Source: Candidatus Doudnabacteria bacterium
GTDB lineage: Bacteria > Patescibacteriota > Doudnabacteria > UBA920
Direction of reading: 5' to 3'
NCBI GenBank assembly: GCA_023245895.1
Contig: JAHFJJ010000001.1
Location: forward strand, 7,621-71,620
Length of the DNA stretch: 64,000 bases
Position 1 is the stretch's first letter, and each line of letters begins with the position of its first letter. Positions 1,809-56,304 of the stretch are shown in pieces. Under the pieces are notes generated by a model, which saw nothing but the letters and a program-made list of their open reading frames with translations, was not told where the DNA came from and did no database searches. The position numbers and the translations under genes were made by a program.

Positions 1809-1836
1809 GTGTAGCGTGCCCATTTATGGGCGATCT
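1809..1836. repeat. REP half-site gtgtagcgtgcccatttatgggcgatct, flanking the RAYT on the left
   Basis: Hairpin gccca-tttat-gggc. The same unit recurs at 3720, 8133, 8781 and 20927. It is the inverted partner of the unit at 2266-2291. Confidence 0.7.
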
Positions 1837-1847
1837 AAGATCTAAAT

Positions 1848-2291: not shown

Positions 2292-2340
2292 CTCCCCCCT
2301 CAAGGGGGAGAACGAAAAGTAAAAGTTAGATAATAATCCC

Positions 2341-3723
2341 ATGCCACTATCATCTATCAGTCCCATTGACGGCCGCTACGCCAAACAAACCAAACCGCTG
2401 GTTGAATTTTTCAGCGAACAGGCTTTAATGCGCTACCGCCTTATTGTTGAAGGCGAATATTTAATCGCGCTGTCGGAACTAAAACTCAAGCTTAGGAAAT
2501 TATCTGACAAAGAAAAAAAACTTATCCGCTCCCTTTATAAATTGCCAACAACCGATGCGCAAATTATTTCTGATATTGAACAGAAAGGCTACAAAAATAT
2601 CCCGGCAACCAACCACGACGTAAAAGCCGTGGAATACTTTTTAAAGTTAAAGCTGGAAAAAACTTCCCTAAAAAAAGTCTTGGAATGGGTGCATTTTGGC
2701 TTAACTTCTTACGATATAAATACTCCCGCCCGCGGCATGATGCTGGGCGATGCTTTGGAAGAAGTAATCTTGCCGAAAATTAATTTGGTAATCCAAAATA
2801 TTGAATCGTTAGCGAAAAAACATAAAAGCCTGCCCATGCTTTCGCGCACCCACGGCCAGCCTGCCTCCCCCACCACTTTTGGCAAGGAGATGGCTGTTTT
2901 TTCCACGAGATTAAAAAAACAATTGGCTGTTCTGAAAAATACAAAAATCTCGGTAAAACTCAGCGGCGCCACCGGCAACTTTAACGCCCATGTGGCGGCT
3001 TACCCAAAAGTTGACTGGATAAAATTTGCCAAAAATTTTATTAACAGCGCCAATAAAAACAGAATCCTCAAACTGGAATTAAATTTGCCCACTACCCAAA
3101 TAGACCCGCATGACAGCGAAGCGGAAATTTTTGACTGTTTGCGCCGTATGAACAGCATTTTAATTGGCTTTAACCAGGACATGTGGCGCTACATTAGCGA
3201 CGAGTGGGTTGGCCAAAAAGCCGTAAAAGGCGAAGTCGGCTCCTCTGCCATGCCGCATAAAATCAACCCCATAAATTTTGAAAACAGCGAAGGCAACTTA
3301 GGCCTGGCCAATGCTTTGTTAAACCATTTTTCGATGAAATTGCCAATCTCGCGACTGCAAAGGGATTTATCAGATTCCACAGTAGAAAGAAACTTTGGTT
3401 CAGCCCTGGCTTACAGCCTAATTGCTTACGAAAATTTACTAAAAGGACTGTCCCGAATTGAGGTAAATAAATTTAAGATGGCGCAAGATTTAAAAGCCCA
3501 TCCCGAAGTCATTGCCGAAGCCATTCAAACAGTCTTGCGCAGGGAAGGCGTAAAAATGCCTTACGAAAAACTTAAAGAACTTACTCGCGGCGAAAAAGTT
3601 ACGCTCAATGATATGCATAAGTTTGTTGATGGTTTAGATGTAAGCGATAAAGTTAAAAAAGAGCTAAAAAAGTTTACCCCGGAAAATTATACCGGATTAG
3701 CAAATAAACTGGCCTTGATGTAG
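2341..3723 (+). CDS. purB: Adenylosuccinate lyase
   Basis: Fumarate-lyase family signature GSSAMPHKINPINFENSEGN. N-terminal SPIDGRYA. 460 aa. Confidence 0.9.
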   Translation: MPLSSISPIDGRYAKQTKPLVEFFSEQALMRYRLIVEGEYLIALSELKLKLRKLSDKEKKLIRSLYKLPTTDAQIISDIEQKGYKNIPATNHDVKAVEYFLKLKLEKTSLKKVLEWVHFGLTSYDINTPARGMMLGDALEEVILPKINLVIQNIESLAKKHKSLPMLSRTHGQPASPTTFGKEMAVFSTRLKKQLAVLKNTKISVKLSGATGNFNAHVAAYPKVDWIKFAKNFINSANKNRILKLELNLPTTQIDPHDSEAEIFDCLRRMNSILIGFNQDMWRYISDEWVGQKAVKGEVGSSAMPHKINPINFENSEGNLGLANALLNHFSMKLPISRLQRDLSDSTVERNFGSALAYSLIAYENLLKGLSRIEVNKFKMAQDLKAHPEVIAEAIQTVLRREGVKMPYEKLKELTRGEKVTLNDMHKFVDGLDVSDKVKKELKKFTPENYTGLANKLALM

Positions 3724-3773
3724 CGTGCCCATTTATGGGCGATCTTAGACGCCGATAAATCGGCACGCTACAC
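3720..3773. repeat. REP doublet (two inverted units with a 3-nt spacer) overlapping the purB stop codon
   Basis: gtagcgtgcccatttatgggcgatct-tag-acgccgataaatcggcacgctacac. The TAG stop of purB is the TAG inside the terminal GTAG of the REP. Confidence 0.8.
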
Positions 3774-6072: not shown

Positions 6073-8136
6073 ATGTCTCTACTTTTTGGAAAACTTACAT
6101 TAGCCGCCCTGCCCCACGAATGGTTCACCATCGCGGGAACGGTTTCAATGATGTTAGGCGGCCTTGGCGTTGCGCTTTTTTTGACCTACTACAAGCGCTG
6201 GAAATGGCTGTGGACAGAATGGCTGACATCTACCGACCCTAAAAGAATTGGCATTATGTATTTTGTGGTGGCTTCTTTAATGCTGGCCAGGGGCGCTCTG
6301 GACGCGGGCATGATATGGCTACAGCAGGCGCTTTCAGTGGGCAGCTCCCACGGCTACTTAAGCGCCGACCACTTCCAGCAAATTTTTACGGCCCACGGCG
6401 CAATAATGGTCTTTTTTGTTACCATGGGTTTTTTGTCCGGACTAATTAACTACATAATGCCCCTGCAAATTGGCGCGCGCGACGTGGCATCGCCTTTGCT
6501 TAACACTTTAAGCTTTTGGCTTTACGTTGCCGGCGCGGTTTTAATAAATTTGTTTTTCGTGTTCGGCGGGGAATTCGCGGCAACCGGATGGCTGTCCATT
6601 GCCCCGCTTTCGGGCATTGAGTTTTCCCCCGGCGTAGGCGTGGACTACTGGATATGGAGTTTGCAAATTTCCGGCTTGGGCAGTTTGCTTGCGGGCGTGA
6701 ACTTTATTGTCACCATTTTAAAAATGCGAGCGCCGGGCATGACTTTAATGCGCATGCCAATGTTCGTTTGGACATCCCTCTCCAGCATGGTGCTGGTAGT
6801 TTCTGTTTTTCCAATTTTGGCCATGACTTTAATCCTTTTAACTTTAGACCGCCAATTCGGTACGCATTTTTTTACCTCGGGTTTTGGCGGCAACCCCATG
6901 CTTTATACCAACCTTATTTGGTCGTGGGGGCATCCGGAAGTTTATATTTTAATGATACCCGCCTTTGGCGTTTACTCCGAAGTCGTATCTACCTTTAGCC
7001 AGAAAAAATTATTCAGCTACAAGTCTTTGGTTGTCGCGGCCATTCTAATTACTTTGCTTTCGGTTTTGGTCTGGCTTCATCACTTCTTTACCATGGGCGC
7101 GGGCGCTAATGTTAACGCCTTTTTCGGAATTATGACCGGCGTAATTGCGATTCCAACCGGCGTGCAGGTTTTTACCTGGCTGGCCACAATGTACAAAGGA
7201 AAAATTAACTTTAAACAGCCCATGCTCTGGTTTGTTGGCTTTATCTGCACCTTTACCTTGGGCGGAGTGGCCGGAGTCATGCTTGGAATTCCGGGGATTG
7301 ATTTTCAGGTGCACAACAGCCTGTTTTTGGTTGCCCACTTCCATACCATGGCCATAGGCGGAGCGCTGTTCGGGATTTTTTGCGGCATTACCTACTGGTT
7401 CCCCAAAATTACAGGTTTTATGCTAAACGAACGGCTTGGCAAATACGCCTTCTGGTCTTGGATAGTCGGCTTTTTTGTTTCCTTTATGCCGCTCTACATT
7501 TTAGGTTTTATGGGCGCGCCCAGGAGGCTTGACCACTACGATGCATCGTTGGGCTGGCAATGGTTGTTTATAGTCGCGGGTTTTGGATTTTTAATTATTT
7601 GCTTAGGCGCGGCTTTGCAGGTTTTACAAATTATAGTAAGCGTTATACAAAGAAAAGAAAGTATGGATGTTACCGGAGACCCCTGGAACGGTAGGACTTT
7701 GGAGTGGGCAACGTCTTCTCCTCCCCCTGTTTACAATTTTGCAATTATACCCGAAGTTAGGGATCGCGATGCTTTCTGGGATATGAAACAATACGCTGTC
7801 ATTGCGAGAAGTGCAGCCGACGAAGCAATCTTATCCGAGAGTAGATTGCCGCGCCCCTCGGATGCACTCGGGGCTCGCAATGACACACAAAAAATTACTT
7901 ACAAAGATATAGTGATGCCAAAAAACACCGCCATTGGCATCTACATTTCCGCCTGCACCTTCTTTTTTGGCTTTGCTTTTGTTTGGCACATTTGGTGGCT
8001 GGTTATTGCAAGTGCAATAGGCGCAATCGTATGCTTAATTGTCAGGTCGTTCGATGAAGAAACTGAATATGTTATTACTGCGGTGGAAGTTGAAAAAATA
8101 GAAAGCATAAATAAATCTTCTACGTTCCCGATGTAG
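6073..8136 (+). CDS. cyoB: Cytochrome bo3 ubiquinol oxidase subunit I, with an in-frame palindromic-element insertion near the C-terminus
   Basis: Haem-copper oxidase subunit I with 12 or more TM helices and the motifs WFFGHPEVYI-like (GHPEVYILMIPAFG) and HFHTMAIGG. The C-terminal IVMPKNTAIG...VWHIWWL matches the CyoB tail. An extra segment of about 27 aa is encoded by the repeat at 7798-7886. Confidence 0.9.
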   Translation: MSLLFGKLTLAALPHEWFTIAGTVSMMLGGLGVALFLTYYKRWKWLWTEWLTSTDPKRIGIMYFVVASLMLARGALDAGMIWLQQALSVGSSHGYLSADHFQQIFTAHGAIMVFFVTMGFLSGLINYIMPLQIGARDVASPLLNTLSFWLYVAGAVLINLFFVFGGEFAATGWLSIAPLSGIEFSPGVGVDYWIWSLQISGLGSLLAGVNFIVTILKMRAPGMTLMRMPMFVWTSLSSMVLVVSVFPILAMTLILLTLDRQFGTHFFTSGFGGNPMLYTNLIWSWGHPEVYILMIPAFGVYSEVVSTFSQKKLFSYKSLVVAAILITLLSVLVWLHHFFTMGAGANVNAFFGIMTGVIAIPTGVQVFTWLATMYKGKINFKQPMLWFVGFICTFTLGGVAGVMLGIPGIDFQVHNSLFLVAHFHTMAIGGALFGIFCGITYWFPKITGFMLNERLGKYAFWSWIVGFFVSFMPLYILGFMGAPRRLDHYDASLGWQWLFIVAGFGFLIICLGAALQVLQIIVSVIQRKESMDVTGDPWNGRTLEWATSSPPPVYNFAIIPEVRDRDAFWDMKQYAVIARSAADEAILSESRLPRPSDALGARNDTQKITYKDIVMPKNTAIGIYISACTFFFGFAFVWHIWWLVIASAIGAIVCLIVRSFDEETEYVITAVEVEKIESINKSSTFPM
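7798..7886. repeat. Palindromic element family B (gtcattgcgag...ctcgcaatgac) lying in frame inside cyoB
   Basis: Perfect 11-bp terminal inverted repeat, gtcattgcgag at 7798-7808 against ctcgcaatgac at 7874-7884, with nested internal stems. Near-identical to the intergenic copy at 25249-25324. It translates as AVIARSAADEAILSESRLPRPSDALGARNDT, which has no counterpart in E. coli CyoB. Confidence 0.75.
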
Positions 8137-8186
8137 TTAGCCCATTTATGGGCTGTCTATAACAGCTGATAAATCAGCTAACTACA
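8133..8186. repeat. REP doublet (variant) overlapping the cyoB stop codon
   Basis: gtagttagcccatttatgggctgtct-ataac-agctgataaatcagctaactac. The cyoB TAG stop is the GTAG of the REP. Confidence 0.75.
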
Positions 8187-8198
8187 AAACAACAAACT

Positions 8199-8786
8199 AT
8201 GCAAAAACCTGATTTACAAATAACCCAACACAATGACAGCAAAACCATCCTCGGATTTTGGGTCTATTTAATGACGGACTTAATTATGTTCGCTGTGCTG
8301 TTCGCGACTTACGCCGCGCTTAAAACCAGCACCTTTGGCGGCCCCGGCCCAAGCGAACTTTTCAGCCTAAACGGAGCTCTTGCTGAAACGTTGATATTAC
8401 TTACCAGCAGTTTTACCTGCGGACTGGCTATGCTCGCGGCGCATCGCCAAAATAAAAACCAAACCATTATTTGGTTTCTGGTTACACTGGCTCTTGGCCT
8501 AACTTTCCTTGGCCTGGAATTAAAAGAATTTTCACAGCTTATTGCCGAAGGCCATACCTGGCAAAAAAGCGCGTTCTTGTCATCATTCTTTGCGCTCGTC
8601 AGCACTCACGGTTTGCATATTGCAATTGGCTCGCTTTGGATAGTTGTCGCCATAAAACAAATTTACTCGCGCGGACTTACACCTTTTATTACTTCCAAAC
8701 TCACCCGCCTAAGCCTCTTCTGGCACTTTTTGGATATTGTCTGGATTTTTATTTTTACGATTGTTTATTTAATGGCGAAAGTGTAG
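8199..8786 (+). CDS. cyoC: Cytochrome bo3 ubiquinol oxidase subunit III
   Basis: 195 aa with 5 TM helices. HGLHIAIG and FWHFLDIVWIFIF are typical of subunit III. It sits in the cyoABCDE order. Confidence 0.85.
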   Translation: MQKPDLQITQHNDSKTILGFWVYLMTDLIMFAVLFATYAALKTSTFGGPGPSELFSLNGALAETLILLTSSFTCGLAMLAAHRQNKNQTIIWFLVTLALGLTFLGLELKEFSQLIAEGHTWQKSAFLSSFFALVSTHGLHIAIGSLWIVVAIKQIYSRGLTPFITSKLTRLSLFWHFLDIVWIFIFTIVYLMAKV

Positions 8787-8808
8787 CGTACCGATTTATC
8801 GGCGAACT
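8781..8808. repeat. Single REP unit overlapping the cyoC stop codon
   Basis: gtgtagcgtaccgatttatcggcgaact. The TAG stop of cyoC lies within its GTAG. Confidence 0.7.
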
Positions 8809-8810
8809 AA

Positions 8811-8945
8811 GCAAAACTGCGGAGCCTTCTCCCCTGGCAAGGGGAGATGTCATGAGTGCATCCGAATGACAGAGAGGTCGAAACCGAGGAACACCTCATC
8901 TGTCCCTCAGATGCATTCGGGACATCTTCTCCTCAAGGAGAAGAG
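8811..8945. repeat. Cluster of three hairpins between cyoC and cyoD
   Basis: tctcccctggcaaggggaga, then a degenerate family-B core (gagtgcatccgaatgaca ... gatgcattcgggac), then tcttctcctcaaggagaaga. The ORF-track N-terminal extension of the cyoD ORF (8856) is encoded entirely by these hairpins. Confidence 0.55.
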
Positions 8946-8972
8946 GGTACACAAGGAATTGCAAACAAAAAT

Positions 8973-9427: not shown

Positions 9428-10318
9428 TTGCTTATGTTCAAAACCTACTACAAATTAGCCAAACCCGGAATTATTTACGGCAATGCCATAAATGCGATTG
9501 CCGGGTTTTTACTTGCCTCGCAGGACGGTTACGATTTTAGACTGTTAATGATAACCCTAATCGGTATTTCCTTGATAGTCGCCTCGGCCTGCGTTTTCAA
9601 CAACATTTGGGACGCGGAGATTGACGCCAAAATGGAACGCACCAAAAACCGCGCCATGGCAGTAAAATCCATAACAAAATCCAACGCGGCTGTTTACGGC
9701 GGCTTGCTTTTCATGCTGGGAGCAACTATTCTCCACTATCACATAAACGATGCCGCGCTCTTTGCCGCGTCTTTTGGTTTTTTAGTTTATGTATTCCTTT
9801 ATACCCCGCTCAAACGCCATACAATTTACGCCACGCAAATTGGCGCGGTTGCGGGAGCCATGCCCGCCGTTGCCGGATACACTGCCATAACGAATAATTT
9901 TGACCTTGGGGCCGGAATATTGTTTTTAATTATAGCCCTCTGGCAAATGCCCCACTTTTACGCCATAGCCATTTACAGGATGGATGAATACGCCGCGGCC
10001 GGTGTCCCCGTCCTTTCGGTTAAAAAAGGCATAAATTTTACCAAAATAAGTACTTTAATTTATTTAATAGCCTTTACTGCTTCTACCAGCTTACTAACGG
10101 TATACGGCTTGACCGGCTACCTTTATTTGGCGGTAATGTTGTTATTAGGCTTAATCTGGCTCTACAAAGGCGTAAAAGGACTTTCCGCCAGAGGCGGATC
10201 CGCCTTTGGCGGAAAAGTTGCTGACGATATTCTGTGGGCAAAAAAGATGTTCCGGTTATCGCTTATTATAATTTTGGCCTTTTGTGTTATAATTCCTATA
10301 GATAAATTTTTCAAATGA
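9428..10318 (+). CDS. cyoE: Protohaem IX farnesyltransferase (haem O synthase), carrying a 28-nt palindrome in frame
   Basis: UbiA-family polyprenyltransferase with about 9 TM helices and NxxxDxxxD (NNIWDAEIDAKMERT). It is the last gene of the cyo operon. Residues SARGGSAFGG are encoded by the palindrome at 10185-10212. Confidence 0.9.
   Translation: MLMFKTYYKLAKPGIIYGNAINAIAGFLLASQDGYDFRLLMITLIGISLIVASACVFNNIWDAEIDAKMERTKNRAMAVKSITKSNAAVYGGLLFMLGATILHYHINDAALFAASFGFLVYVFLYTPLKRHTIYATQIGAVAGAMPAVAGYTAITNNFDLGAGILFLIIALWQMPHFYAIAIYRMDEYAAAGVPVLSVKKGINFTKISTLIYLIAFTASTSLLTVYGLTGYLYLAVMLLLGLIWLYKGVKGLSARGGSAFGGKVADDILWAKKMFRLSLIIILAFCVIIPIDKFFK
10185..10212. repeat. Palindrome ccgccagaggcggatccgcctttggcgg inside the cyoE reading frame
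   Basis: The same 28-nt palindrome occurs intergenically at 10839-10866 as a perfect palindrome, and inside rpoD at 53916-53943. Confidence 0.7.
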
Positions 10319-10817: not shown

Positions 10818-10838
10818 TAGTTTATAAGATTAATTTTC

Positions 10839-10866
10839 CGCCAAAGGCGGATCCGCCTTTGGCGGA
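10839..10866. repeat. Perfect 28-nt palindrome ccgccaaaggcggatccgcctttggcgg, the intergenic copy
   Basis: Its reverse complement is identical to itself. Same family as 10185 and 53916. Confidence 0.75.
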
Positions 10867-10975
10867 AATATTTAATATACTGATTATAACATACTTTACC
10901 AAACCTGGCACATTTCCCTGATGCCTGTCAGATACATATTGGCATAAGCCATTAATTTTATATTATTATACCCCT

Positions 10976-13422: not shown

Positions 13423-14544
13423 TTACTGAAACTGAATATAAACCGGGATGGGAGTAAGTTTCAAGAGTTGCTGGGGTGTTAACATCCCGCCGCCCACAAC
13501 GTCGTTTTTATAAAAAAGTTTAAAGCCCGTGAATTGGATTGGCTCTTTATATACATACTGCTGGTAAGTATTTAGCTTGGCGCCCTGTCCGCCAAAGCCG
13601 TCCATGTCCATAACAATTTGGACTTCGGGAAGAGGCTGGATTTTTTTTGCGTTGGTGACCATTGCCTGGGTAAACCGGTGGACTATGAGAACTTTGGGCG
13701 TGAGGTTGTTATCGCGGACAATTTTTGCAAGATACTCCGCGGCAAAATTAAAATCAGCCGCGTCCAAAGTCCCTATTACGGTGCCCGGCCTTTGGCCGTT
13801 ATGCATGGCAAACTCCGGGTCTATGCCCAAATGCACATTGGGAAGTTTTAAATACTTTTCCAAAAGCGGGACTTCTGTTTGGACATTGCTTTGCCCGACT
13901 TGGATGTCCAAAAATACCAAACCGTGGATTTTATCAGCCATTGCTAATACTTTTTTTATTTCCGACTCCGGCATCCTTGCTCTATATTTTCCGTCGCGCC
14001 CTCCACCGGCCTGCGCTACTACCACAATGTAATGAAGTGCAGGGATTACTGGCGTAGTCGGATCGGCCTCCTGCCATTTCTTTACTTCGCTTGATAGTTT
14101 ATCCAGCATGACATCTTCGGTATACTCGCCCAGCACGCCCATGCCCTTTGAATATAAATTTCCGTAATAAGCCACTATCCGGTTAAAAGGCAAAAGCGCC
14201 CCGTAATTTGGGTAAACGGTTTTTACCGGCCATAGTAGGTTTTCCTTGCTCCCTCTCCCTATGGGAGAGGGCCGGGGTGAGGGTTCTGTGGACGTAGCAG
14301 TTGATGATGCGACTACAGGATTATTCGCTATCTGCTCTAACTTTAAATCATAAGCCACAAAATCCAGTTTAGGCGGTTCGGGAACGGGCGTTACTGTTTC
14401 CGCTGATTTAACCTGTCCGGGTTTTTGCATAACCGCAATTTTAGGATGGCTAAAAATCTTAAACTTCAAATAAAACCCTGCACATACCAAAACCGCCGCA
14501 GCCGTGATAAACCAAAAAACTTTATTTTTAAGCACATTTTTCAT
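13423..14544 (-). CDS. Membrane-anchored hypothetical protein with a Pro/Ser/Thr linker, carrying a short palindromic element in frame
   Basis: An N-terminal TM anchor followed by a large extracytoplasmic domain of unknown family. Residues SPRPSPIGRGS are encoded by the hairpin ccctctccctatgggagagggccggggtgaggg at 14251-14283. Confidence 0.45.
   Translation of the reverse strand: MKNVLKNKVFWFITAAAVLVCAGFYLKFKIFSHPKIAVMQKPGQVKSAETVTPVPEPPKLDFVAYDLKLEQIANNPVVASSTATSTEPSPRPSPIGRGSKENLLWPVKTVYPNYGALLPFNRIVAYYGNLYSKGMGVLGEYTEDVMLDKLSSEVKKWQEADPTTPVIPALHYIVVVAQAGGGRDGKYRARMPESEIKKVLAMADKIHGLVFLDIQVGQSNVQTEVPLLEKYLKLPNVHLGIDPEFAMHNGQRPGTVIGTLDAADFNFAAEYLAKIVRDNNLTPKVLIVHRFTQAMVTNAKKIQPLPEVQIVMDMDGFGGQGAKLNTYQQYVYKEPIQFTGFKLFYKNDVVGGGMLTPQQLLKLTPIPVYIQFQ
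14251..14283. repeat. Hairpin element ccctctccc-tatg-ggagaggg-ccggggtgaggg inside an ORF
   Basis: A related element, cccctctcttttcaaaagagaggggcggggtgag, lies intergenically at 56216-56250 immediately upstream of dnaG. Confidence 0.6.
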
Positions 14545-25242: not shown

Positions 25243-25248
25243 TAACAT

Positions 25249-25324
25249 GTCATTGCGAGGAGTGCAGCCGACGAAGCAATCTTATCTAAGGAAAAGATCG
25301 CTTCGGATGCACTCGCGATGACAT
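25249..25324. repeat. Palindromic element family B, the intergenic copy
   Basis: gtcattgcgaggagtgcagccgacgaagcaatcttatc...gatcgcttcggatgcactcgcgatgacat. Roughly 90 % identical to the copy inside cyoB. Confidence 0.75.
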
Positions 25325-36838: not shown

Positions 36839-38257
36839 TTGGAAATACATACGCCGGGACAAATTTTTAGAAACACTCCGTACGATAAATTTATTTTGAA
36901 CCTTTCGTGCAGCCAAGCTAAGCTGGAAAATGACAACAAAGGAGTAGATGTAAAGCGCGGACTTAGAAAGAAAATTGCAGCAGGTATGACCATTGGCTTG
37001 GTACCGGAAGGTTATGTAAATTCCAAATATGCAGCCAGGGGCACAAACGTGGCGTTAAAAGATTCAGAGCGTTTTCCTTTGGTCCGCAAAATGTGGGACT
37101 TAATGCTTACAGGAAATTATACACCGCAACAAATTTTAAAAATTGCAAACAGAGAATGGGGTTATAAAACAATTCAGCGGCACAAAATTGGTGGCAAATC
37201 TTTATCTCGTAGTGCAATCTACCAAATGTTTAAAAATCCATTTTATTATGGTTCTATATTTCTTCGTAAAGCTGACGAAGTACATCCGGGCACTCACGAG
37301 CCAATGGTTACCAAAGAAGAATTTGACCGCGTCCAATTTTTGCTCCGCAGCAAGGGCTTAAAATCCGCGCCTCATACAAAAGAGTTTGCCCATACCGGAC
37401 AAATTGTTTGCCAGGAGTGCGGCTGCCAAATTACAGCAGAAGAAAAAAATAAATTCGTCTGCACCAATTGCAAACAAAAGTTCACCCATTCCTTTAAAGG
37501 TAATAAAGCGGCCTGCCCGTACTGCGGTACTTTAATTGCTAACATGGAAAAGCCAAAAAGCTACCATTATGTTCACTACCGCTGCACCAAACGCAAGAAC
37601 ACTGAAACTTTCCGCTGCTCTCAATCCAGCGTTAGTGAAAAAGACTTGGAAGGCCAGGTTAAAAACTTCCTAGCGACAATAAGCATAAACCCCAAATATC
37701 TGGAATGGGGCCTTAAGCATTTAAACGAAAACAAACCAAAAGAAGCCGTAACAGAGGAGGCTATAGCTCAAAATGCAGAAAAGGCATTAGCCGGCATAGA
37801 GAAAAAACTCGGTGGTTTAATTGATATGCGCGCTGCGGGAGAAATTAGCGAGGAGGAATTTAGCAAACGCAGGCAAGCGGCTCTAAATGAAAAGGAGCTG
37901 ATGGAAACAATTTTAAAAAAGAATAAACGCGATGACAGCCAAGGCACTAACAAAGCAAAAGAAACTTTAACATTTGCCGAGCGCGCCTTAAGAGAATACG
38001 AAAATGGCGACAAAAGAAAGAAACACGAGATATTAAAGACCTTAAGTTCGGAACTAAAGCTAAACAACAAAACACTTCTTATACATGCGCAGAAACCTTC
38101 TATAATTCTAACTCAATCTCTTGTGGCCGTACCTGAAGCAAAAGCAGGGTTAGGAACCGTAGAACCCACTATAAACAAAAGACGAACTGCGTCTTTCGAC
38201 GTCGTTCGTCCTTCGTGGCTCGGGAGCTGGGATTCGAACCCAGAACCAATCGATTAA
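36839..38257 (+). pseudogene. Large serine recombinase lacking the N-terminal catalytic (resolvase) domain: recombinase domain, zinc ribbon and coiled coil only
   Basis: It carries the recombinase-domain motif (YQMFKNPFYYGSI), a CxxC...CxxC zinc beta-ribbon (CQECGC...CTNC...CPYCG) and a coiled-coil tail. No Ser-containing resolvase domain or alpha-E helix appears upstream. Its 3' end runs into tRNA-Asn, the expected att site. Confidence 0.65.
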
Positions 38258-38290
38258 CAGTCGATTGCTCTACCGTTGAGCTACTCCCGA
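38216..38290 (-). tRNA. tRNA-Asn (anticodon GTT), CCA encoded
   Basis: The cloverleaf reads out by hand: acceptor tcgggag/ctcccga, D-arm gctc-aacggta-gagc, anticodon stem atcga/tcgat with loop ctGTTaa, T-arm ctggg-ttcgaat-cccag, discriminator G then CCA. 75 nt. Confidence 0.85.
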
Positions 38291-38526
38291 ATATTTTCGT
38301 CAAGCCATTTGCGGCCTTGACCAGACTTTAAGAATTTTTCTCTTCTTAAGGCCTCGTTTTTTGTCGCAAACATCTCTTGATGGATTAATATCCAAGGCTT
38401 GTTATGTCGAGTAAAGATGTTAGTCCCATTGTTATGTTCGGCAAGGCGCGCTTCCGCAGATTTTGAGCTGGAGCCGACATAGCGTTTGCTATTCCTTTGG
38501 CTTTTTAACACATATACGCGGAACAT
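38281..38526 (-). CDS. GIY-YIG nuclease (COG2827/Slx1-URI-like), free-standing; its last 3 codons overlap the tRNA-Asn 5' end
   Basis: 81 aa. YVLKSQ...RYVGSS...RLAEHNNG...KPWILIHQEMFATKNEALRREKFLKSGQGRKWLDEN. It is a paralog of the domain inserted in the DHFR-like gene. Confidence 0.75.
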   Translation of the reverse strand: MFRVYVLKSQRNSKRYVGSSSKSAEARLAEHNNGTNIFTRHNKPWILIHQEMFATKNEALRREKFLKSGQGRKWLDENIRE

Positions 38527-38538
38527 ATTTTTACAGTC

Positions 38539-38599
38539 TCCGCCGGAGGCGGACCAGCCTCTGGCTGGGATTGCTCTACCGTTGAGCTACTCCCGAATA
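38539..38599. repeat. Palindrome ccgccggaggcggaccagcctctggctgg, followed by a 31-nt duplicate of the tRNA-Asn 5' half
   Basis: 38569-38599 (gattgctctaccgttgagctactcccgaata) is identical to 38263-38293, which covers tRNA nt 1-28 plus 3 flanking nt. The GIY-YIG gene lies between the two copies. Confidence 0.75.
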
Positions 38600-40065: not shown

Positions 40066-40150
40066 AAAAACAAAAACCGAACAAACATTTGTCCGGTTTC
40101 GCCATTGGCCTCCCCGCAGCTTTAAGGCGACCATATAATAAGCTGCGGAT
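40066..40150 (-). ncRNA. Conserved structured element, copy A: hairpin with conserved loop ATTATaTGGTCGCCTTA plus palindrome ccgGacaaatgtttgttcgg
   Basis: A second copy sits at 44333-44458. Loop and palindrome are conserved between copies, while the flanking stem differs with compensatory changes (gcagctt/aagctgc against ctgaaagtt/aactttcag). Confidence 0.4.
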
Positions 40151-40167
40151 TTAGGGCTTACAGAATA

Positions 40168-42480
40168 TTAAATTTTTACCGGTTCCTGCGCGGGTTCTTT
40201 TTTCGGCAACAGCTTTTTTGCTTCCAGCCAGCCGGCGACTGCTTCAGGCGCCATAGGCGGGGAAATATAATAGCCCTGCGCCGCGTCGCATCCCAGGCCT
40301 GCCAAAAAATTAAATTGCTGGTCAGTCTCCACGCCTTCGGCAATGACTTTTAAATTCAAGGTGCGGGCCATAGAAACAATGGTGCGCACAATACCCGCGT
40401 CCTGTTCATTTACAATGCACTGCCTGACGAAAGAACGGTCAATTTTAAGGTTATGGATAGGAAAGCGCTTTAAATAACTTAAGGAGGAATAGCCCGTCCC
40501 AAAATCATCTATGCTAATCCTAACGCCCATTTTCTTAAGCTGTTTCAAATTATGGCTTGTGGTTTCCAGGTTGCTCATTGCAACGCTCTCGGTAATCTCT
40601 ACTTCCAGGTTGCCCGCATCCATGGCGGATTCTTGCAAAATACGCGCCAGCTGCTCAAGGAATTCGCTGTCGGCAAAGCTTTGGGCTGAAAGATTAACAG
40701 CCATCCGGAACTGCGGAAAACCCATAGCCTCCCAGTCTATATATTGCCGGCAGGTCGCTTTTAAGGCATATTCGCTAAAGCGTAAAATTAAACCGGTTTC
40801 TTCGGCCAGGGGAATAAATTCCGCCGGCGAAAGTAATCCTTTAACCGGATGCTGCCAGCGGGCCAGGGCTTCCATAGCCATGAGTTTTCCGGTTTTCAAA
40901 TTTACAATCGGCTGGTAATAAAGCGACACTTGATTTTCGGCCAGAGCGCGGCGGAGGTCATTTTCCAAAGCCAGTTTTTCAGAGGCGTGGGTGTCCGAGG
41001 ATGGGTTATAGAGGCTGTAACAGTTGCGGCCTTTTTCCTTGGCGCGGTAGAGGGCCATATCCGCGTGCTTTTTTAGTTCATGAGTATCGTGGCCGTCGTA
41101 AGGGTAAATAGCAATACCAATGCTGACCGAAGGGTGGAATGTATGCGCGCCCAGCTGTACCGGTATGCTACTGGCTTTTAGGATTTTTTCCGCGACCTTT
41201 ACCGCCTCGCCTCCGGAATGTATTTCGTTCAATAAAATTAAAAACTCATCCCCCCCAAAACGCGCAATAGTGTCCTCCGCCCTCAGACAGGACTTAAAAC
41301 GCGTGGCCGCTAATTTTAGCACGGTATCGCCCACCGAATGGCCCAGTGTGTCATTAATGCTTTTAAAGCGGTCCATGTCCAAAAACATTATTGCCATTTT
41401 CCTGTTATGCCGCTTAGCCGCTTCTATGGCTTGTTCAACCCTAATACCGAATTGCTTGCGGTTGGGCAGGCCGGTTAGGGAATCATGGTAGGCCTGGTGT
41501 AAAATGGTCTGTTCTGAAAATTTGCGTTCGGTAATGTCGCGCAGGTTGGCCACAATACTGCCTACGCCGGGATGGTCCATCATGTTAACCAATGTCGCTT
41601 CCAGCCAGCGCACGGAACCGTCGCTATGCCAAAAACGGAACTCAAGCGTTTTGGAGCTTTGGGGGACCTGCAAAATTTCAGTGCTATGGGAACGTAAAAG
41701 CGGCAGGTCTTCTTCTAAAACCAACTCGGTAATTTTTTTGTTAATTAAATCGGCCGATTTGTATCCGGACACCTTTGCGGCCGAAGGAGTCATGTCTAAA
41801 ATTTGCCCCTCGGGAGAAATAAGGGCAATAATGTCATAGCTGTTTTCAACCAGGGCCTGGAAACGGGATTTTTGGTTTTCGGCTTCCAGCCTGGCGGCCT
41901 GTTCGCTGGCCAACAAACGGTATATGGTAATGGCCTGGGCGGCACTATGACCAATTAAAACACAAAGGTCTTTTTCATCATCCGTGAATTCGTGTACGTT
42001 GTTGTAGCAAATGTTGAAAGTGCCGTAATTAGTATTTTTATATGCAATGGGAATTGCCACAAAACCTTTAATGTAGGGCTTGAGCTCAGATACCAGCTTG
42101 TCCCATTGTGTATAATCCGACATATAAATAGGCATTTTGTCGTCAAATGCCTTTTGTGTAATGCCGTCTGTCCTGGGCGGGGTCGGTTCAAAAGGAGTAC
42201 GCGGGTCTTTATAGAGCAGCCTAAATTCTTTTTCAGTACTGTCTTTAAAAAAAGAAAAGCCGTAATTGGCGTTTAAAATATCAACTGTAACGTCAGTAAA
42301 ATTTTGTACGATTTGCCTCTCGTTGGCCGCGCCGACAGATTTAAGGACAGCCTGGTTTAACCTATTAAAATTTTTCTTAATGTTTTCTTGCATAAAGTTA
42401 AAGGAAAGGGGCTTGCTGGAGGAATGGGAAATTCCCCCAGCAAGTGTAGCGTAGGCTATTGGAACACCAACAAACGGCAC
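40168..42480 (-). CDS. GAF/PAS sensor protein with GGDEF and EAL domains (c-di-GMP turnover)
   Basis: RFGGDEF with an upstream LDMDRFKSIND GGDEF core. EAL motifs EALARWQHP and the DDFGTGYSSL region. Central PAS segment. 770 aa. Confidence 0.85.
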   Translation of the reverse strand: MPFVGVPIAYATLAGGISHSSSKPLSFNFMQENIKKNFNRLNQAVLKSVGAANERQIVQNFTDVTVDILNANYGFSFFKDSTEKEFRLLYKDPRTPFEPTPPRTDGITQKAFDDKMPIYMSDYTQWDKLVSELKPYIKGFVAIPIAYKNTNYGTFNICYNNVHEFTDDEKDLCVLIGHSAAQAITIYRLLASEQAARLEAENQKSRFQALVENSYDIIALISPEGQILDMTPSAAKVSGYKSADLINKKITELVLEEDLPLLRSHSTEILQVPQSSKTLEFRFWHSDGSVRWLEATLVNMMDHPGVGSIVANLRDITERKFSEQTILHQAYHDSLTGLPNRKQFGIRVEQAIEAAKRHNRKMAIMFLDMDRFKSINDTLGHSVGDTVLKLAATRFKSCLRAEDTIARFGGDEFLILLNEIHSGGEAVKVAEKILKASSIPVQLGAHTFHPSVSIGIAIYPYDGHDTHELKKHADMALYRAKEKGRNCYSLYNPSSDTHASEKLALENDLRRALAENQVSLYYQPIVNLKTGKLMAMEALARWQHPVKGLLSPAEFIPLAEETGLILRFSEYALKATCRQYIDWEAMGFPQFRMAVNLSAQSFADSEFLEQLARILQESAMDAGNLEVEITESVAMSNLETTSHNLKQLKKMGVRISIDDFGTGYSSLSYLKRFPIHNLKIDRSFVRQCIVNEQDAGIVRTIVSMARTLNLKVIAEGVETDQQFNFLAGLGCDAAQGYYISPPMAPEAVAGWLEAKKLLPKKEPAQEPVKI

Positions 42481-44332: not shown

Positions 44333-44458
44333 AAAACAAAAAATCCGAACAAATGTTTGTTCGGTTTCGCCATTGGCCTTGGCCGCCTAAATTTTATTGG
44401 CAATAAAATTTTGGTGGCCTAGCTGAAAGTTTAAGGCGACCAGATAATAACTTTCAGG
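44333..44458 (-). ncRNA. Conserved structured element, copy B, with an extra internal hairpin
   Basis: ccgaacaaatgtttgttcggtttcgccattggcc and ctgaaagtt-taaggcgaccagataat-aactttcag. See copy A. Confidence 0.4.
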
Positions 44459-44605
44459 TTACAGGCTAACAATTTATATGAAATTTTTGCTTTCTTTACT
44501 AAAGATACTCCTGTTTAAAAAAAGTGTCAAGCAAGATTTTTGCTTTTTCTTTAGGGGGATTTTTTGTTTATCCACAAAAAATAAGCGCTATGTTTAAATC
44601 GGCTT

Positions 44606-54454: not shown

Positions 54455-56215
54455 CTAAAGATGATTCTCAAATACTGCTCTCTCTTTTAACAAATTAGCA
54501 AAGGTTAGATTTAATTCATCAACTCTTAGTTTATTGCCGGCGGTTTCCGCGGCCTTAATGTCGGACTGCAAAGCCTGCTGTTGGCGTTTTAAGGAATTAA
54601 CTTTGAGCAATGCGAAAGATTTTTCTAAAATTCTCCTTAATCTGTCAGTCTCTCCGCCCAGTTCGTCCAGTTGTGATTCTACCATAAAAAGCACTTCTTT
54701 GGCTAGTGTTGTCTGTCGCGCTGATGCGGCTTGTTCTCCCCCTGCAATTAGCTGGCTTACTGCCTTACCAACCTCAGGATCCTCAAAATCTTGCGCCTGG
54801 ATTTTGCCCAAAATTGCAGCCAAAAAATCCGGCAAAAACAGCAACCCCCCCAAAACTTCCTTTTGCAAAAGCAGCCCCGGCGCAACTTTTTGGGCCTGTG
54901 ATATACTATCCCCTATACCCTGTACCCTCAACCCTCCCTTTATCTGGTCCCGAATAACCTTTTCCGAAATTAAAAACCTGGTGGCAATATTATGCACGTA
55001 ATGGTCCTGCTCTAACGGGTCGCTCACAAAGCCTAAAAACGGTACCACCTCTTTACTCAAATATAATTTTTGCTCTACCGAACCCTGTTTAAAATTGTTT
55101 TCGGCTAAATCTATGTAGTAATCCAAAAACCAAATAGCTTCGCTGATGGCTTTTTCCCAAAGCCCCGGAGATTTTTTTATTAGTTCGTCGGGGTCCTTAA
55201 CATTTTTAAGGATGATGAGTTTTAAACGGAAGCCATTCTTCAAAGCCAGCTCCCCGGCGCGTCGGCTGGCAGTCTGACCCGCGGCGTCACTGTCAAAACA
55301 AAACTTTAAATTTTTTGTCAGGCGCCCTAGTTGCTGGAGCTGTTGTTCTGTCAAAGCCGTGCCGCTGGATGCCACGGTGTTTGCAAAGCCAGCCTGGTGA
55401 GCCGCAATGCAATCCATTTGTCCCTCGACAATGACCGCTTCATCTTTTTTGCGAATAGCGTCTTTGGCAAAATTCAGCCCGAACAAAATTTTGCTTTTGT
55501 TGTAAATGGCGGTTTCAGGGCTATTAACATATTTCGCGGACTTACCATCATCGCGCAAAATTCTGGCAGAGAAACCAACGGTCTCACCAAAATAATTATA
55601 AATGGGAAAAGTTACGCGCCCACGGAATCGGTCGTACATTTGTCCGCGTTCATTTTTGGCCGACACTCCGGCTTTTACCAGCTCGTTGATGTTAACTTTT
55701 TTAGTTGCCAAAGCTTTTTCCAAAGCGTGAAAATCATCAGCCGCAAAACCAATTTCCCAGTTTTTTATTGTCGCCTCGCTAAGTCCGCGCGTTTTTAAAT
55801 ACTCCAAAGCTTCCGCGCCGCCTTTGCTTAATAAGACCTGATGATAGTAACGCGCGGCAAAAGCGTTTATCCTTAACAATAATTCTTTTTCATCCTGCTG
55901 ATACTGGTCAACCGGCTTATAGGTTGGCAACTTCACCCCCGCTTTGTCAGCCAAAATTTTCAGCGCGTCCCTAAATTCCAAATTCTCATATTTTCTCACA
56001 AAACCAAAAACATCCCCGCCCTCGCCGCAGCCAAAGCAATGCCAAATCTGCTTTTGCGGGCTTATGATTAAAGACGGTGACTTCTCATTATGAAAAGGGC
56101 AAGGCGCCTTAAAATTGACGCCGGCCTTCTTAAGTTGAATATAACCGCCGATGATATCCGCAATATTCAGCCTATCCTTAATCTCTTGTAATACCGGATC
56201 GTTCATAGGTTTCAA
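54455..56215 (-). CDS. dnaG: DNA primase
   Basis: Zinc-binding CPFHNEKSPSLIISPQKQIWHCFGCGEGGDVFGFV. A TOPRIM region (EGQMD...D.D..G). 586 aa. Immediately upstream of rpoD. Confidence 0.9.
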   Translation of the reverse strand: MKPMNDPVLQEIKDRLNIADIIGGYIQLKKAGVNFKAPCPFHNEKSPSLIISPQKQIWHCFGCGEGGDVFGFVRKYENLEFRDALKILADKAGVKLPTYKPVDQYQQDEKELLLRINAFAARYYHQVLLSKGGAEALEYLKTRGLSEATIKNWEIGFAADDFHALEKALATKKVNINELVKAGVSAKNERGQMYDRFRGRVTFPIYNYFGETVGFSARILRDDGKSAKYVNSPETAIYNKSKILFGLNFAKDAIRKKDEAVIVEGQMDCIAAHQAGFANTVASSGTALTEQQLQQLGRLTKNLKFCFDSDAAGQTASRRAGELALKNGFRLKLIILKNVKDPDELIKKSPGLWEKAISEAIWFLDYYIDLAENNFKQGSVEQKLYLSKEVVPFLGFVSDPLEQDHYVHNIATRFLISEKVIRDQIKGGLRVQGIGDSISQAQKVAPGLLLQKEVLGGLLFLPDFLAAILGKIQAQDFEDPEVGKAVSQLIAGGEQAASARQTTLAKEVLFMVESQLDELGGETDRLRRILEKSFALLKVNSLKRQQQALQSDIKAAETAGNKLRVDELNLTFANLLKERAVFENHL

Positions 56216-56250
56216 CCCCCTCTCTTTTCAAAAGAGAGGGGCGGGGTGAG
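56216..56250. repeat. Hairpin element cccctctcttttcaaaagagaggggcggggtgag directly upstream of dnaG
   Basis: Same family as the in-frame element at 14251-14283. Confidence 0.55.
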
Positions 56251-56304
56251 TTCTTTTGAGATATTCTTACCCTATTTTAGCTGTATTTCCAATATTCCAC
56301 TATA

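What the first reader, a model, noticed from the sequence alone, without database searches (positions are those of the whole stretch)
14251..14283. Third hairpin family (CCCTCTC...GAGAGGG-CGGGGTGAG) present both in frame and upstream of dnaG
ccctctccctatgggagagggccggggtgaggg sits inside the ORF 13423-14544, encoding PSPRPSPIGRGS in a linker. A sibling, cccctctcttttcaaaagagaggggcggggtgag, lies at 56216-56250 immediately 5' of the dnaG start. Hairpins tctcccc-tggcaa-ggggaga (8827) and gctcccccctcaagggggagaac (2281) look related. Together with the two families above, this genome carries at least three independent palindromic element families that insert in frame.
Basis: seen in the sequence. Interest (0 to 1): 0.5.

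Follow-up and report, generated by a model that had tools for sequence, protein, structure and literature searches.

The report
BoxC triplex-motif repeats in a CPR genome
The two "hairpins" are copies of a known, nearly universal 33-nt bacterial repeat (BoxC / PIT / TMECO triplex motif, first described in E. coli). What is unusual here is that one copy sits in frame inside a protein linker and the other lies in the dnaG leader of a Patescibacteria genome.

Summary
Copy A (14251-14283) and copy B (56217-56252) share an exact 16-of-17-nt core, GAGAGGGNCGGGGTGAG, plus the complementary left arm. They are not a genome-specific family. A is 32/34 identical to E. coli MG1655 "TMECO no. 1" (BoxC / PIT element / intrastrand triplex motif, type B). 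It also matches 4,532 of 5,426 E. coli genomes. The same 17-mer with the same left arm occurs in genomes of most bacterial phyla and in viral contigs.

Both copies obey the three-block purine-motif triplex rule perfectly (9 and 10 triads; about 0.05 GC-rich hits per shuffled window).

The window comes from a Patescibacteria (CPR) bacterium. A is a 33-nt in-frame insert (PSPRPSPIGRG) in a low-confidence, unstructured (likely disordered) linker of a conserved membrane-anchored protein. Most orthologues lack it. A scattered minority carry variant copies at the same place, strand and frame, with three-way covarying blocks. Other loci recovered through CPR protein homologues carry the element in frame in purB and dnaG.

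B lies between a conserved -10 box and the dnaG ATG. Its G-arm is the only Shine-Dalgarno-like sequence and is sequestered in an 11-bp hairpin.

The hairpins at 8828 and 2292 lack the third block and are not members. The kind is known; the host and the in-frame location are new.

The parts
14251..14283 (+). Copy A: canonical BoxC/PIT/TMECO type-B element, G-rich strand on +. Block 1 CCCTCTCCC 14251-14259; loop TAT; block 2 GGGAGAGGG 14263-14271; loop CCG; block 3 GGGTGAGGG 14275-14283.
   Evidence: Sequence. Nine perfect triads in the triplex scan. 32/34 identical to E. coli MG1655 TMECO no. 1 in Table 1 of PMC4666352. BLAST hits in 4,532 of 5,426 E. coli genomes.
13423..14544 (-). Host gene of copy A: 373-aa protein conserved in Patescibacteria. 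It has an N-terminal transmembrane helix (residues 8-31), a low-confidence, unstructured linker (about 77-109) and a TIM-barrel-like domain. Copy A encodes residues 88-98, PSPRPSPIGRG.
   Evidence: Translation. 8,000 homologues, the named ones from Patescibacteria. Alignment A1 shows the insert absent from most orthologues. AlphaFold pLDDT is below 50 with no secondary structure at 77-87 and 89-109. Weak TIM-barrel fold matches. No Pfam, NCBIfam or PDB sequence hit.
56217..56252 (+). Copy B: divergent BoxC/TM variant. Block 1 CCCCTCTCTT 56217-56226; loop; block 2 AAGAGAGGGG 56232-56241; C; block 3 GGGGTGAGTT 56243-56252. As a hairpin it has an 11-bp stem, 56217-56227 / 56231-56241.
   Evidence: 10 perfect triads. 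16/17 identity with A over GAGAGGGNCGGGGTGAG. RNA hairpin in the dnaG leader in the MFE and centroid folds.
56207..56216 (-). 9-10-nt spacer between the G-rich arm of B (GAGAGGGGG on the mRNA strand; the only Shine-Dalgarno-like sequence) and the dnaG ATG.
   Evidence: SD-like 4-mers precede 15 of 43 window genes, against an 8% background.
54455..56206 (-). dnaG (DNA primase), start ATG at 56206.
   Evidence: Pfam Zn_ribbon_DnaG, DNAG_N, Toprim and DnaB_bind. Orthologues start at the same MNDP/MADQ position.
56274..56279 (-). Candidate -10 box TAAAAT, within 'atacagctaaaatagg'. In close relatives this box lies only about 6-8 nt before the dnaG ATG. In the window about 67 nt, including copy B, separate it from the ATG.
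   Evidence: Upstream comparison of 30 orthologous loci and L150. A second promoter-like site, TTGACT-18-AATATT at 56320-56291, comes from the consensus scan. Inferred, not shown.
8828..8847 (+). Pyrimidine-arm/purine-arm hairpin TCTCCCCT-GGCA-AGGGGAGA. Not a member: no third block. It lies 16 nt after a REP-like GTAG element (8782-8812).
2292..2310 (+). Pyrimidine-arm/purine-arm hairpin CTCCCCC-CTCAA-GGGGGAG. Not a member: no third block. It abuts an inverted REP-like GTAG element (2268-2291).

Best explanation
Identity. Both elements are copies of the known BoxC / PIT / TMECO repeat. This is a 33-37-nt non-coding interspersed element with three parts: a C-rich block, its complementary purine block, and a third G-rich block that mirrors the purine block. 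Single-stranded, the G-rich strand can fold into a hairpin plus a purine-motif intrastrand triplex. This was shown in vitro for the E. coli element. Canonical copies can alternatively form a G-quadruplex.

Spread. The element carries no gene, and how it spreads is unknown. It turns over quickly, with patchy presence and absence at orthologous sites.

Copy A (inferred passenger). A is 33 nt long and stop-free in the frame used, and in 4 of the 6 frames overall. It encodes a Pro/Ser/Gly-rich peptide and landed in a likely disordered linker between the membrane anchor and the catalytic-looking domain. The protein therefore tolerates it. In compact CPR genomes with very little intergenic DNA, such permissive linkers and loops are among the few places where copies can survive.

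Copy B (inferred). B sits in the dnaG 5' leader, downstream of the likely -10 box. Its G-arm supplies the only Shine-Dalgarno-like sequence, 9-12 nt before the ATG. The 11-bp hairpin sequesters that sequence, so B probably sets, and most likely limits, dnaG translation initiation.

Shown versus inferred. Shown: identity, anatomy, in-frame location, absence from most orthologues, position relative to dnaG. Inferred: neutrality of A, the RBS and attenuator role of B, and any in vivo DNA structure.
For: Identity:
- A fits the published pattern CCCTCNCCC-N3-6-GGGNGAGGG-N3-GGGNGAGGG with the type-B loop CCG. It is 32/34 identical to MG1655 TMECO no. 1.
- A 45-nt query around A hits 4,532 of 5,426 E. 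coli genomes. The median is 7 places per genome, 90-95% identity, with no annotated feature beneath the eight best places listed.

Architecture beyond the search pattern:
- 113 of 122 genomic instances and 130 of 137 viral instances of the 17-mer also have the CCCTCTC left arm.

Triplex rule:
- A has 9/9 triads and B 10/10. GC-rich hits occurred once in 20 shuffled windows.
- Rare block-2 variants in 2.5 Mb of collected loci carry matching block-3 variants. Examples: AGGGGAGGG/GGGTGGGGA, GAGGAGAGG/GGTGAGGAG, AAAGGGGGG/GGGGGGATT.

A is an insertion in a real gene:
- Most orthologues lack it.
- The window linker is 11 aa (33 nt) longer than that of the closest insert-free orthologue, P0002.
- pLDDT is below 50 and there is no secondary structure at residues 77-109.

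The same phenomenon elsewhere:
- TM variants occur at the same linker site, strand and frame in L121, L122, L123, L124 and L126.
- A TM lies in frame inside purB in L124, as an insertion relative to the solved structure 4nsl.
- A TM lies in frame in the DnaG C-terminal region in L178.

B:
- It is absent upstream of dnaG in about 28 of 30 orthologous loci.
- The close relatives L127 and L131 have the same 'atacagctaaaata' box about 6-8 nt from the ATG.
- L150 has a TM in the same orientation, also 9 nt before the ATG.
- The hairpin is present in both the MFE and centroid folds.
- SD-like motifs are used in this genome.
Against: - No experiment bears on these two copies.
- For the E. coli element, published in vivo DMS footprinting did not detect a stable triplex in double-stranded DNA. 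Earlier work found no promoter or terminator activity (PMC4666352). Any structural role is therefore unproven.
- The leader fold is not more stable than shuffled sequence (z = -1.4). The hairpin is real but the leader as a whole is unremarkable.
- B departs from the strict published pattern. It lacks the terminal GG of block 3, which is G in 99% and 91% of other copies, and may simply be decaying.
- The linker copies share the same site, strand and frame in 6-7 scattered orthologues. This fits either one old insertion with many precise losses or site-specific re-insertion, and I could not separate the two. It also hints at something more than random insertion plus survivorship.
Confidence: 0.85

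Rival explanations
1. One reading: a novel palindromic element family specific to this genome. It would include the hairpins at 8828 and 2292 and would actively insert in frame.
For: GC-rich hairpins with a pyrimidine arm and a purine arm are enriched: 5 observed against 0.1 expected in shuffles. The extra hairpins are therefore not random. A is in frame.
Against: The element is the published BoxC/TMECO and occurs across phyla. The hairpins at 8828 and 2292 lack block 3 and have different stems. They flank copies of a separate REP-like GTAG family.
Confidence: 0.05
2. Copy B is an exapted cis-regulatory RNA element. The TM hairpin in the dnaG leader would be retained because it provides and occludes the Shine-Dalgarno sequence, keeping primase synthesis low. 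This is compatible with the main explanation but claims selection for function.
For: The G-arm GAGAGGGGG lies 9-12 nt before the ATG and is the only SD-like motif. The 11-bp hairpin appears in both MFE and centroid folds. L150, whose DnaG is 54% identical, has a TM in the same orientation exactly 9 nt before its ATG, with GGAGG in the arm. Relatives without the TM look leaderless.
Against: Only 2-3 of about 30 orthologous leaders have a TM. The leader is not unusually stable. dnaG upstream regions in these genomes collect many unrelated micro-repeats, so this may simply be one of the few free intergenic sites. PIT elements showed no effect on RNA polymerase, promoter or terminator activity in E. 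coli (as cited in PMC4666352).
Confidence: 0.3
3. The relevant structure is a G-quadruplex/hairpin/duplex switch rather than a triplex. This is the 'cHPG2' reading of the same E. coli element.
For: A's G-strand GGGAGAGGGCCGGGGTGAGGG is identical to cHPG2 and has four G3+ tracts.
Against: B has only two G-tracts of three or more and so cannot form an intramolecular G4, yet it keeps the hairpin and the mirror third block. Variant copies covary in the way the triplex rule predicts, including A/T positions that a G4 does not need.
Confidence: 0.15
4. The DNA similarity results from selection for a Pro/Ser-rich peptide linker motif (PSPxPSP...GxG), not from a DNA element.
For: Several orthologues have PSPxPSP at the same place and in the same frame.
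Against: B is non-coding. The purB copy in L124 is read from the opposite strand as SLSLWERDGVRV. The same DNA lies under no annotated feature in the E. coli hits listed and is reported as intergenic there. Most orthologues have no such peptide.
Confidence: 0.02

Closest known systems
BoxC repeat / PIT (potential intrastrand triplex) element / TMECO triplex motif of E. coli. Sources: Bergler and Bachellier 1990s; Hoyne and Maher 2000; Holder et al. 2015, PMC4666352. It is the same sequence as the 'cHPG2' putative G-quadruplex motif (bioRxiv 10.1101/032615).
   Same: Copy A matches block for block and carries the type-B CCG loop. It is 32/34 identical to MG1655 copy no. 1. Both window copies obey the three-block rule. 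The element is multi-copy and interspersed, has no associated mobility gene, and is patchily present or absent between relatives.
   Different: In E. coli every copy is reported as intergenic. Here A is translated in frame, and related copies sit inside purB and dnaG. The host is a Patescibacteria/CPR genome, whereas the 2015 survey reported 262 proteobacterial genomes. B replaces the distal G-C/G triads with A-T/T and lacks the terminal GG, so it falls outside the strict published pattern.
Rickettsia palindromic elements (RPE), which insert in frame into protein-coding genes. From my own knowledge of Ogata et al. 2000; alluded to in PMC2267715.
   Same: A short palindromic repeat that survives inside ORFs as an in-frame, stop-free peptide insert in surface, loop or linker regions of otherwise conserved proteins, in a small reduced genome.
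   Different: RPEs are about 100-150 bp and restricted to Rickettsia. They have no third mirror block and no sequence similarity to this element. This is an analogy of behaviour only.
REP / REPIN elements mobilised by RAYT (IS200/IS605-like) transposases.
   Same: Short GC-rich hairpin repeats scattered outside genes and often paired head to head. The window has such a family of its own: GTAGCGTRCC[CG]ATTTAT[CG]GGCG.
   Different: REPs are defined by a 5' GTAG/GTGG tetranucleotide next to the palindrome and by a cognate RAYT. The BoxC/TM copies have neither, and no mobilising enzyme is known for them.
MITEs such as Correia/NEMIS or ERIC.
   Same: Non-autonomous interspersed repeats that can be co-transcribed and can alter expression of neighbouring genes.
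   Different: MITEs have terminal inverted repeats matching a transposase and target-site duplications, and are 100 bp or longer. None of that is visible here.

Membership tests
BoxC / PIT / TMECO intrastrand triplex motif | Sequence pattern 5'-CCCTCNCCC N3-6 GGGNGAGGG N3 GGGNGAGGG-3' (PMC4666352). | tested here: met
   Copy A is CCCTCTCCC-TAT-GGGAGAGGG-CCG-GGGTGAGGG. Copy B meets it only in the core: 16/17 over GAGAGGGNCGGGGTGAG. The distal two positions of all three blocks are T/A/T instead of C/G/G.
BoxC / PIT / TMECO intrastrand triplex motif | Type-B second loop (CCG), or type A (TTA). | tested here: met
   A has CCG, i.e. type B. B has GCG in the same register. Among 122 genomic instances the variable base is C 78, T 34, G 6, A 4.
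BoxC / PIT / TMECO intrastrand triplex motif | Three blocks satisfy the class II purine-motif rule: block 1 complementary to block 2; block 3 antiparallel to block 2 with G*G and A/T*A. | tested here: met
   A has 9/9 triads and B 10/10, each with 0 mismatches. GC-rich hits occurred once in 20 shuffles. Variants elsewhere covary three ways.
BoxC / PIT / TMECO intrastrand triplex motif | Direct sequence similarity to E. coli copies. | tested here: met
   A 45-nt query around A matched 4,532 of 5,426 E. coli genomes at mostly 90-95% identity, with a median of 7 places per genome. It is 32/34 identical to Table 1 entry no. 1.
BoxC / PIT / TMECO intrastrand triplex motif | Intergenic location. This is a descriptive property in E. 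coli, not a structural definition. | tested here: not met
   A is translated in frame. B is intergenic. In E. coli all copies are intergenic.
BoxC / PIT / TMECO intrastrand triplex motif | [quoted passage not shown] | not testable with these tools
   Shown for the E. coli oligonucleotide in PMC4666352. A has identical stems, so the same is expected. B is untested.
Putative G-quadruplex motif cHPG2 | Four G-tracts of at least 3 with loops of 1-7; sequence GGGAGAGGGCCGGGGTGAGGG. | tested here: met
   A contains this 21-mer exactly. B does not meet it, having only two G-tracts of 3 or more.
REP / REPIN (RAYT-associated) | Conserved GTAG/GTGG tetranucleotide adjacent to the palindrome. | tested here: not met
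   Neither A nor B has a GTAG next to it. The window's separate D2 family does.
Intrinsic (Rho-independent) terminator | GC-rich hairpin followed by a U-run on the transcribed strand. | tested here: not met
   There is no T-run after either hairpin on either strand. The terminator scan around B reports only an unrelated site at 56483-56464.
Rfam RNA families | Covariance-model match at or above the gathering score. | tested here: not met
   No family matched at A or B at gathering threshold. The best sub-threshold hit at A scored 15 bits against a cutoff of 37.

The most novel reading that the evidence does not exclude
In Patescibacteria the BoxC/triplex motif behaves as a protein-invading micro-element, analogous to Rickettsia RPEs but only 33 nt long and shared across bacteria. 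Copies recur at the same site, strand and frame in scattered orthologues. The sites are the linker of the 373-aa protein and the leader 9 nt before the dnaG ATG. Their three blocks covary. Together this would mean either a site- and orientation-specific insertion mechanism acting on structured or single-stranded DNA, or long-term selection that maintains the three-block fold in situ. Either outcome would give the first handle on how and why this near-universal element persists with almost invariant sequence.
Probability: 0.25. Interest if true: 0.6.

Novelty: new member of a known kind. Interest (0 to 1): 0.35.

Why it matters
BoxC/PIT/TMECO has been known for thirty years, yet it has no accepted function or spreading mechanism.

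Three results here are modest but concrete extensions:
- A near-identical copy (32/34 nt) sits in a CPR bacterium, and the core 17-mer plus its unsearched left arm recurs across many phyla and in viral contigs.
- In these gene-dense genomes the element survives inside genes as a translated insert (a linker protein, PurB, DnaG).
- Variant copies at orthologous sites covary in all three blocks.

These points bear on three practical matters. Annotators should expect PSPxPSP..GRG or SLSLWERxGVR peptides as repeat-derived. The debate over which structure is relevant (triplex or G-quadruplex) gains evidence from copy B and the covarying variants. The recurrent same-site copies also open the question of whether the element is mobile.

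For the window itself the finding is mostly explained by a known element.

Tried and rejected
- Chance. Rejected: two exact 17-mers, with the complementary arm present though not searched for.
- Misread gene start, with A lying in a 5' UTR upstream of an internal ATG at about 14233. Rejected: the N-terminal transmembrane helix and the YDxKL..ANNP region upstream of A are conserved in orthologues, and a terminator plus a -10 box precede the ATG at 14544.
- Terminator role. Rejected: no T-run.
- Known RNA family. None found.
- Conserved dnaG leader element. Rejected as a general feature: absent from most orthologous leaders.
- Monophyly of the linker insert. The NJ tree of the C-terminal domain scatters insert-bearing orthologues among insert-free sisters. 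The tree is rough, and I could not decide between many losses and many gains.
- Naming the host protein. Pfam, NCBIfam and PDB sequence searches were empty. The fold search gave only weak generic TIM-barrel matches.
- Fetching the source contig. The look-up returned no DNA and no record name, so a genome-wide census of copies was not possible.
- Literature on in-frame BoxC copies or on such repeats in CPR genomes. Nothing relevant found.
Full report
**1. Observation**

The quoted sequences are present. Copy A reads CCCTCTCCC-TAT-GGGAGAGGG-CCG-GGGTGAGGG at 14251-14283 on the + strand. Copy B reads CCCCTCTCTTT-TCA-AAAGAGAGGGG-C-GGGGTGAG at 56217-56250.

The two share GAGAGGGNCGGGGTGAG. This pattern occurs exactly twice in the window with no mismatch, and no further site appears even at three mismatches. 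The hairpin arms are perfect: 9 bp in A and 11 bp in B.

A lies in the minus-strand ORF 13423-14544 and is read as PSPRPSPIGRG, residues 88-98. B ends 9-10 nt upstream of the ATG (56206) of a gene with the full DnaG domain set.

**2. What the element is**

A full-text search for the two G-rich words led to Holder et al. 2015 (PMC4666352) and to a bioRxiv paper on E. coli G-quadruplexes. The element is the BoxC repeat of E. coli. It was later called the PIT (potential intrastrand triplex) element and then the TMECO triplex motif. Its published pattern is CCCTCNCCC-N3-6-GGGNGAGGG-N3-GGGNGAGGG, with type A (loop TTA) and type B (loop CCG).

- Copy A fits the pattern exactly and is type B.
- A differs from MG1655 copy no. 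1 (CCCTCTCCCTGTGGGAGAGGGCCGGGGTGAGGGC) at one loop base and the last base.
- A's G-strand 21-mer equals the 'cHPG2' G-quadruplex motif.
- A 45-nt query around A matched 4,532 of 5,426 complete E. coli genomes. The median was 7 places per genome, mostly at 90-95% identity, with no annotated feature beneath the eight best places listed.

**3. Distribution**

An exact scan of one genome per species stopped at its 120-locus limit. The hits came from Proteobacteria (including Enterobacteriaceae), Verrucomicrobia, Planctomycetes, Acidobacteria, Bacteroidetes, Chloroflexi, Deinococcus, Bifidobacterium, Myxococcota and others. The viral-contig collection also hit its limit.

The left arm was not part of the search pattern. 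Even so, 113 of 122 genomic instances and 130 of 137 viral instances have CCCTCTC (at most 1 mismatch) at the right distance. A short (T)TCT precedes block 1, and GG follows GGGGTGAG in 91-99% of the genomic instances (74-96% of the viral ones). The element is therefore a single, almost invariant sequence family spread across Bacteria. It is not a family of this genome.

**4. Anatomy**

I wrote a scanner for class II intrastrand triplex motifs. It requires a pyrimidine block, its complementary purine block, and a third block antiparallel to the purine block with G*G and A/T*A.

- In the window it returns A (9 triads, no mismatch), B (10 triads, no mismatch) and one AT-rich 7-mer.
- Twenty shuffled windows gave one GC-rich hit in total.
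- Relative to A, B has changed the two distal positions of all three blocks together: CC/GG/GG becomes TT/AA/TT.
- B lacks four G-tracts, so it cannot form an intramolecular G-quadruplex.
- Across 2.5 Mb of collected loci, rare purine-block variants carry matching third blocks. Examples are AGGGGAGGG with GGGTGGGGA, GAGGAGAGG with GGTGAGGAG, and AAAGGGGGG with GGGGGGATT.

This is three-way covariation, as the triplex rule predicts. It does not prove that a triplex forms in cells. The 2015 paper saw the triplex only for the isolated strand and not in vivo.

**5. Copy A in its gene**

The 373-aa ORF is real. It has thousands of homologues, and those that carry names are from Patescibacteria (Doudnabacteria, Paceibacteria, Nomurabacteria), which identifies the window's organism as a CPR bacterium.

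The alignment shows an N-terminal hydrophobic helix, a variable Ser/Thr-rich linker, and a conserved domain starting at W105. AlphaFold gives pLDDT below 50 and no secondary structure for residues 77-87 and 89-109. The domain after that is a reasonably confident alpha/beta fold with only weak TIM-barrel matches.

Most orthologues have a short linker without the insert. The closest one, P0002, is 11 residues (33 nt) shorter there.

Some orthologues carry variant copies close to the same place: 11-13 nt before the conserved TGG codon in the five orthologues read at DNA level, against 18 nt in the window. These are P0003, P0004, P0012, P0020 and P0025 (read at DNA level), and P0065 (judged from its peptide only). 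All are on the same strand and in the same frame. Their block variants keep the three-block rule:
- CCCTCCCCC/GGGGGAGGG/GGGAGGGGG in L123.
- TCCTCTCCC/GGGAGAGGA/AGGTGAGGG in L126.
- One mismatch in L121.

Two of the copies have a second micro-repeat nested in a loop. On a rough NJ tree the insert-bearing proteins are scattered among insert-free sisters. The history therefore involves several gains or several precise losses.

The element also occurs in frame elsewhere. In L124 it sits inside purB on the other strand, read as SLSLWERDGVRV. It is a clear insertion relative to the solved adenylosuccinate lyase 4nsl. In L178 it sits in the C-terminal part of DnaG. In E. coli, by contrast, both published surveys report that every copy is intergenic.

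**6. Copy B and dnaG**

I compared 110 nt upstream of dnaG in 30 related metagenomic loci. Many share a TTGTCGAGGTTGC motif and a TAAAAT box.

- In the closest full-length relatives (L127, L131; 68-70% identity) the string 'atacagctaaaata' ends only about 6-8 nt before the ATG. This suggests a leaderless or nearly leaderless mRNA.
- The window has the same string at 56286-56273, but about 67 nt, including B, follow before the ATG.
- B therefore lies downstream of the likely promoter and overlaps the ribosome-binding region.
- On the mRNA strand its 3' arm reads AAAAGAGAGGGGG and ends 9 nt before the ATG. It is the only Shine-Dalgarno-like sequence and is paired in the 11-bp hairpin in both the MFE and centroid folds.
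- This genome does use SD-like motifs: 15 of 43 genes, against an 8% background. Many other genes look leaderless.
- L150 (54% identical DnaG) has a TM in the same orientation, also 9 nt before its ATG, with GGAGG in the arm. L152 has one about 80 nt upstream.
- The other leaders lack it and carry unrelated micro-repeats instead.

A role for B in setting dnaG translation is plausible but inferred. The leader as a whole is no more stable than shuffled sequence (z = -1.4).

**7. The other two hairpins**

The hairpins at 8828-8847 and 2292-2310 have 7-8-bp pyrimidine/purine stems but no third block, and they do not align with A or B beyond base composition. Each sits beside a copy of a different family, GTAGCGTRCC[CG]ATTTAT[CG]GGCG. 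That family has the GTAG-plus-palindrome layout of REP elements and occurs singly or as head-to-head doublets after stop codons.

GC-rich hairpins with a pyrimidine arm and a purine arm are nevertheless enriched in the window: 5 observed against 0.1 in shuffles. A distant relationship cannot be excluded, but they fail the family's defining features.

**8. Mechanism and rivals**

Best reading:
- A is a tolerated passenger. It is 33 nt long and stop-free in four of six frames. It encodes Pro/Ser/Gly in a likely disordered linker, in a genome with little intergenic space.
- B is a leader insertion whose G-arm now serves as, and is masked as, the SD.
- The element itself is a structure-prone selfish or neutral repeat whose spreading mechanism is unknown.

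Rivals considered: a genome-specific new family (refuted); selection for a peptide motif (refuted by the non-coding and opposite-strand copies); a G-quadruplex as the relevant structure (weakened by B and by covariation at A/T positions); and B as a selected regulator (open).

The recurrence at the same site, strand and frame in scattered orthologues is not explained by simple random insertion. It is the most interesting loose end.

**9. Novelty**

The kind is known and published. Three things are new. The host clade is Patescibacteria. The translated in-frame location contrasts with the strictly intergenic E. coli copies. The breadth of near-identical copies across phyla and in viral contigs goes beyond the 262 proteobacterial genomes reported in 2015.

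Literature searches found no report of in-frame BoxC copies or of such repeats in CPR genomes. The library searched is incomplete, so this absence is weak evidence.

Noticed in passing
window 1810-1840, 2268-2291, 3719-3773, 8132-8190, 8782-8812: A REP-like family, GTAGCGTRCC[CG]ATTTAT[CG]GGCG (GTAG plus palindrome). It occurs singly and as head-to-head doublets, usually right after stop codons. No RAYT-like gene was looked for.
   Followed up: partly
window 10182-10215, 10835-10868, 38537-38570, 53910-53943: A 34-nt perfect palindrome family, TTTCCGCCAGAGGCGGATCCGCCTTTGGCGGAAA. Two copies fall inside long ORFs (9428-10318 and 53042-54361), so they may also be in-frame inserts.
   Followed up: no
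window 7797-7835 and 25248-25286: A 39-nt repeat, TGTCATTGCGAGRAGTGCAGCCGACGAAGCAATCTTATC, 97% identical between the two copies. The first lies inside ORF 6073-8136.
   Followed up: no
window 40082-40170 (-) and about 44334-44471: A c-di-GMP-II-GAG riboswitch match (44.8 bits, gathering score 40) lies upstream of the 770-aa ORF 40168-42480. A diverged second copy of the same about 100 nt (72-88% identical) lies upstream of ORF 44606-45853 and did not reach Rfam's threshold.
   Followed up: no
window 38263-38293 and 38569-38599: An exact 31-nt duplicate of the 5' part (on the minus strand) of tRNA-Asn (38216-38290, minus strand), 306 nt away. It may be an attachment-site duplication or a remnant of an integration.
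   Followed up: no
window 8787-8960: A non-coding-looking stretch with several stacked hairpins, including 8828-8847, 8925-8944 and an imperfect long-range pairing around 8850-8915. It has no Rfam hit at gathering threshold.
   Followed up: no
L122 5001-6158 and L124 5001-6173 (orthologues P0003, P0020); peptides of P0007 and P0095: A second micro-repeat, cttcgccaaggctWcgSSggaca, is nested inside the loops of the TM copy in two orthologues. A third element, encoding 'RSLGEGG', occupies the same linker in two others. The linker, and perhaps the TM loops themselves, is a hotspot for several repeat families.
   Followed up: partly
window, gene starts such as 14544, 5182, 31442, 35556, 61361: Many genes have a -10-like box (TATACT, TATAAT, TAAAAT) only 6-10 nt before the ATG and no Shine-Dalgarno sequence. 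This suggests widespread leaderless mRNAs alongside SD-led genes (15 of 43).
   Followed up: partly
L127-L157, 30-110 nt upstream of dnaG: A conserved motif, TTGTCGAGGTTGC, recurs upstream of dnaG in many Patescibacteria loci but not in the window. It may be a promoter or operator element.
   Followed up: no
L207-L286 (IMG/VR viral contigs): The BoxC/TM 17-mer with its left arm is common in viral and prophage contigs. Several contigs carry 3-4 copies (e.g. L223, L231, L233). This contrasts with the published statement that the E. coli element is not associated with phages or plasmids.
   Followed up: partly
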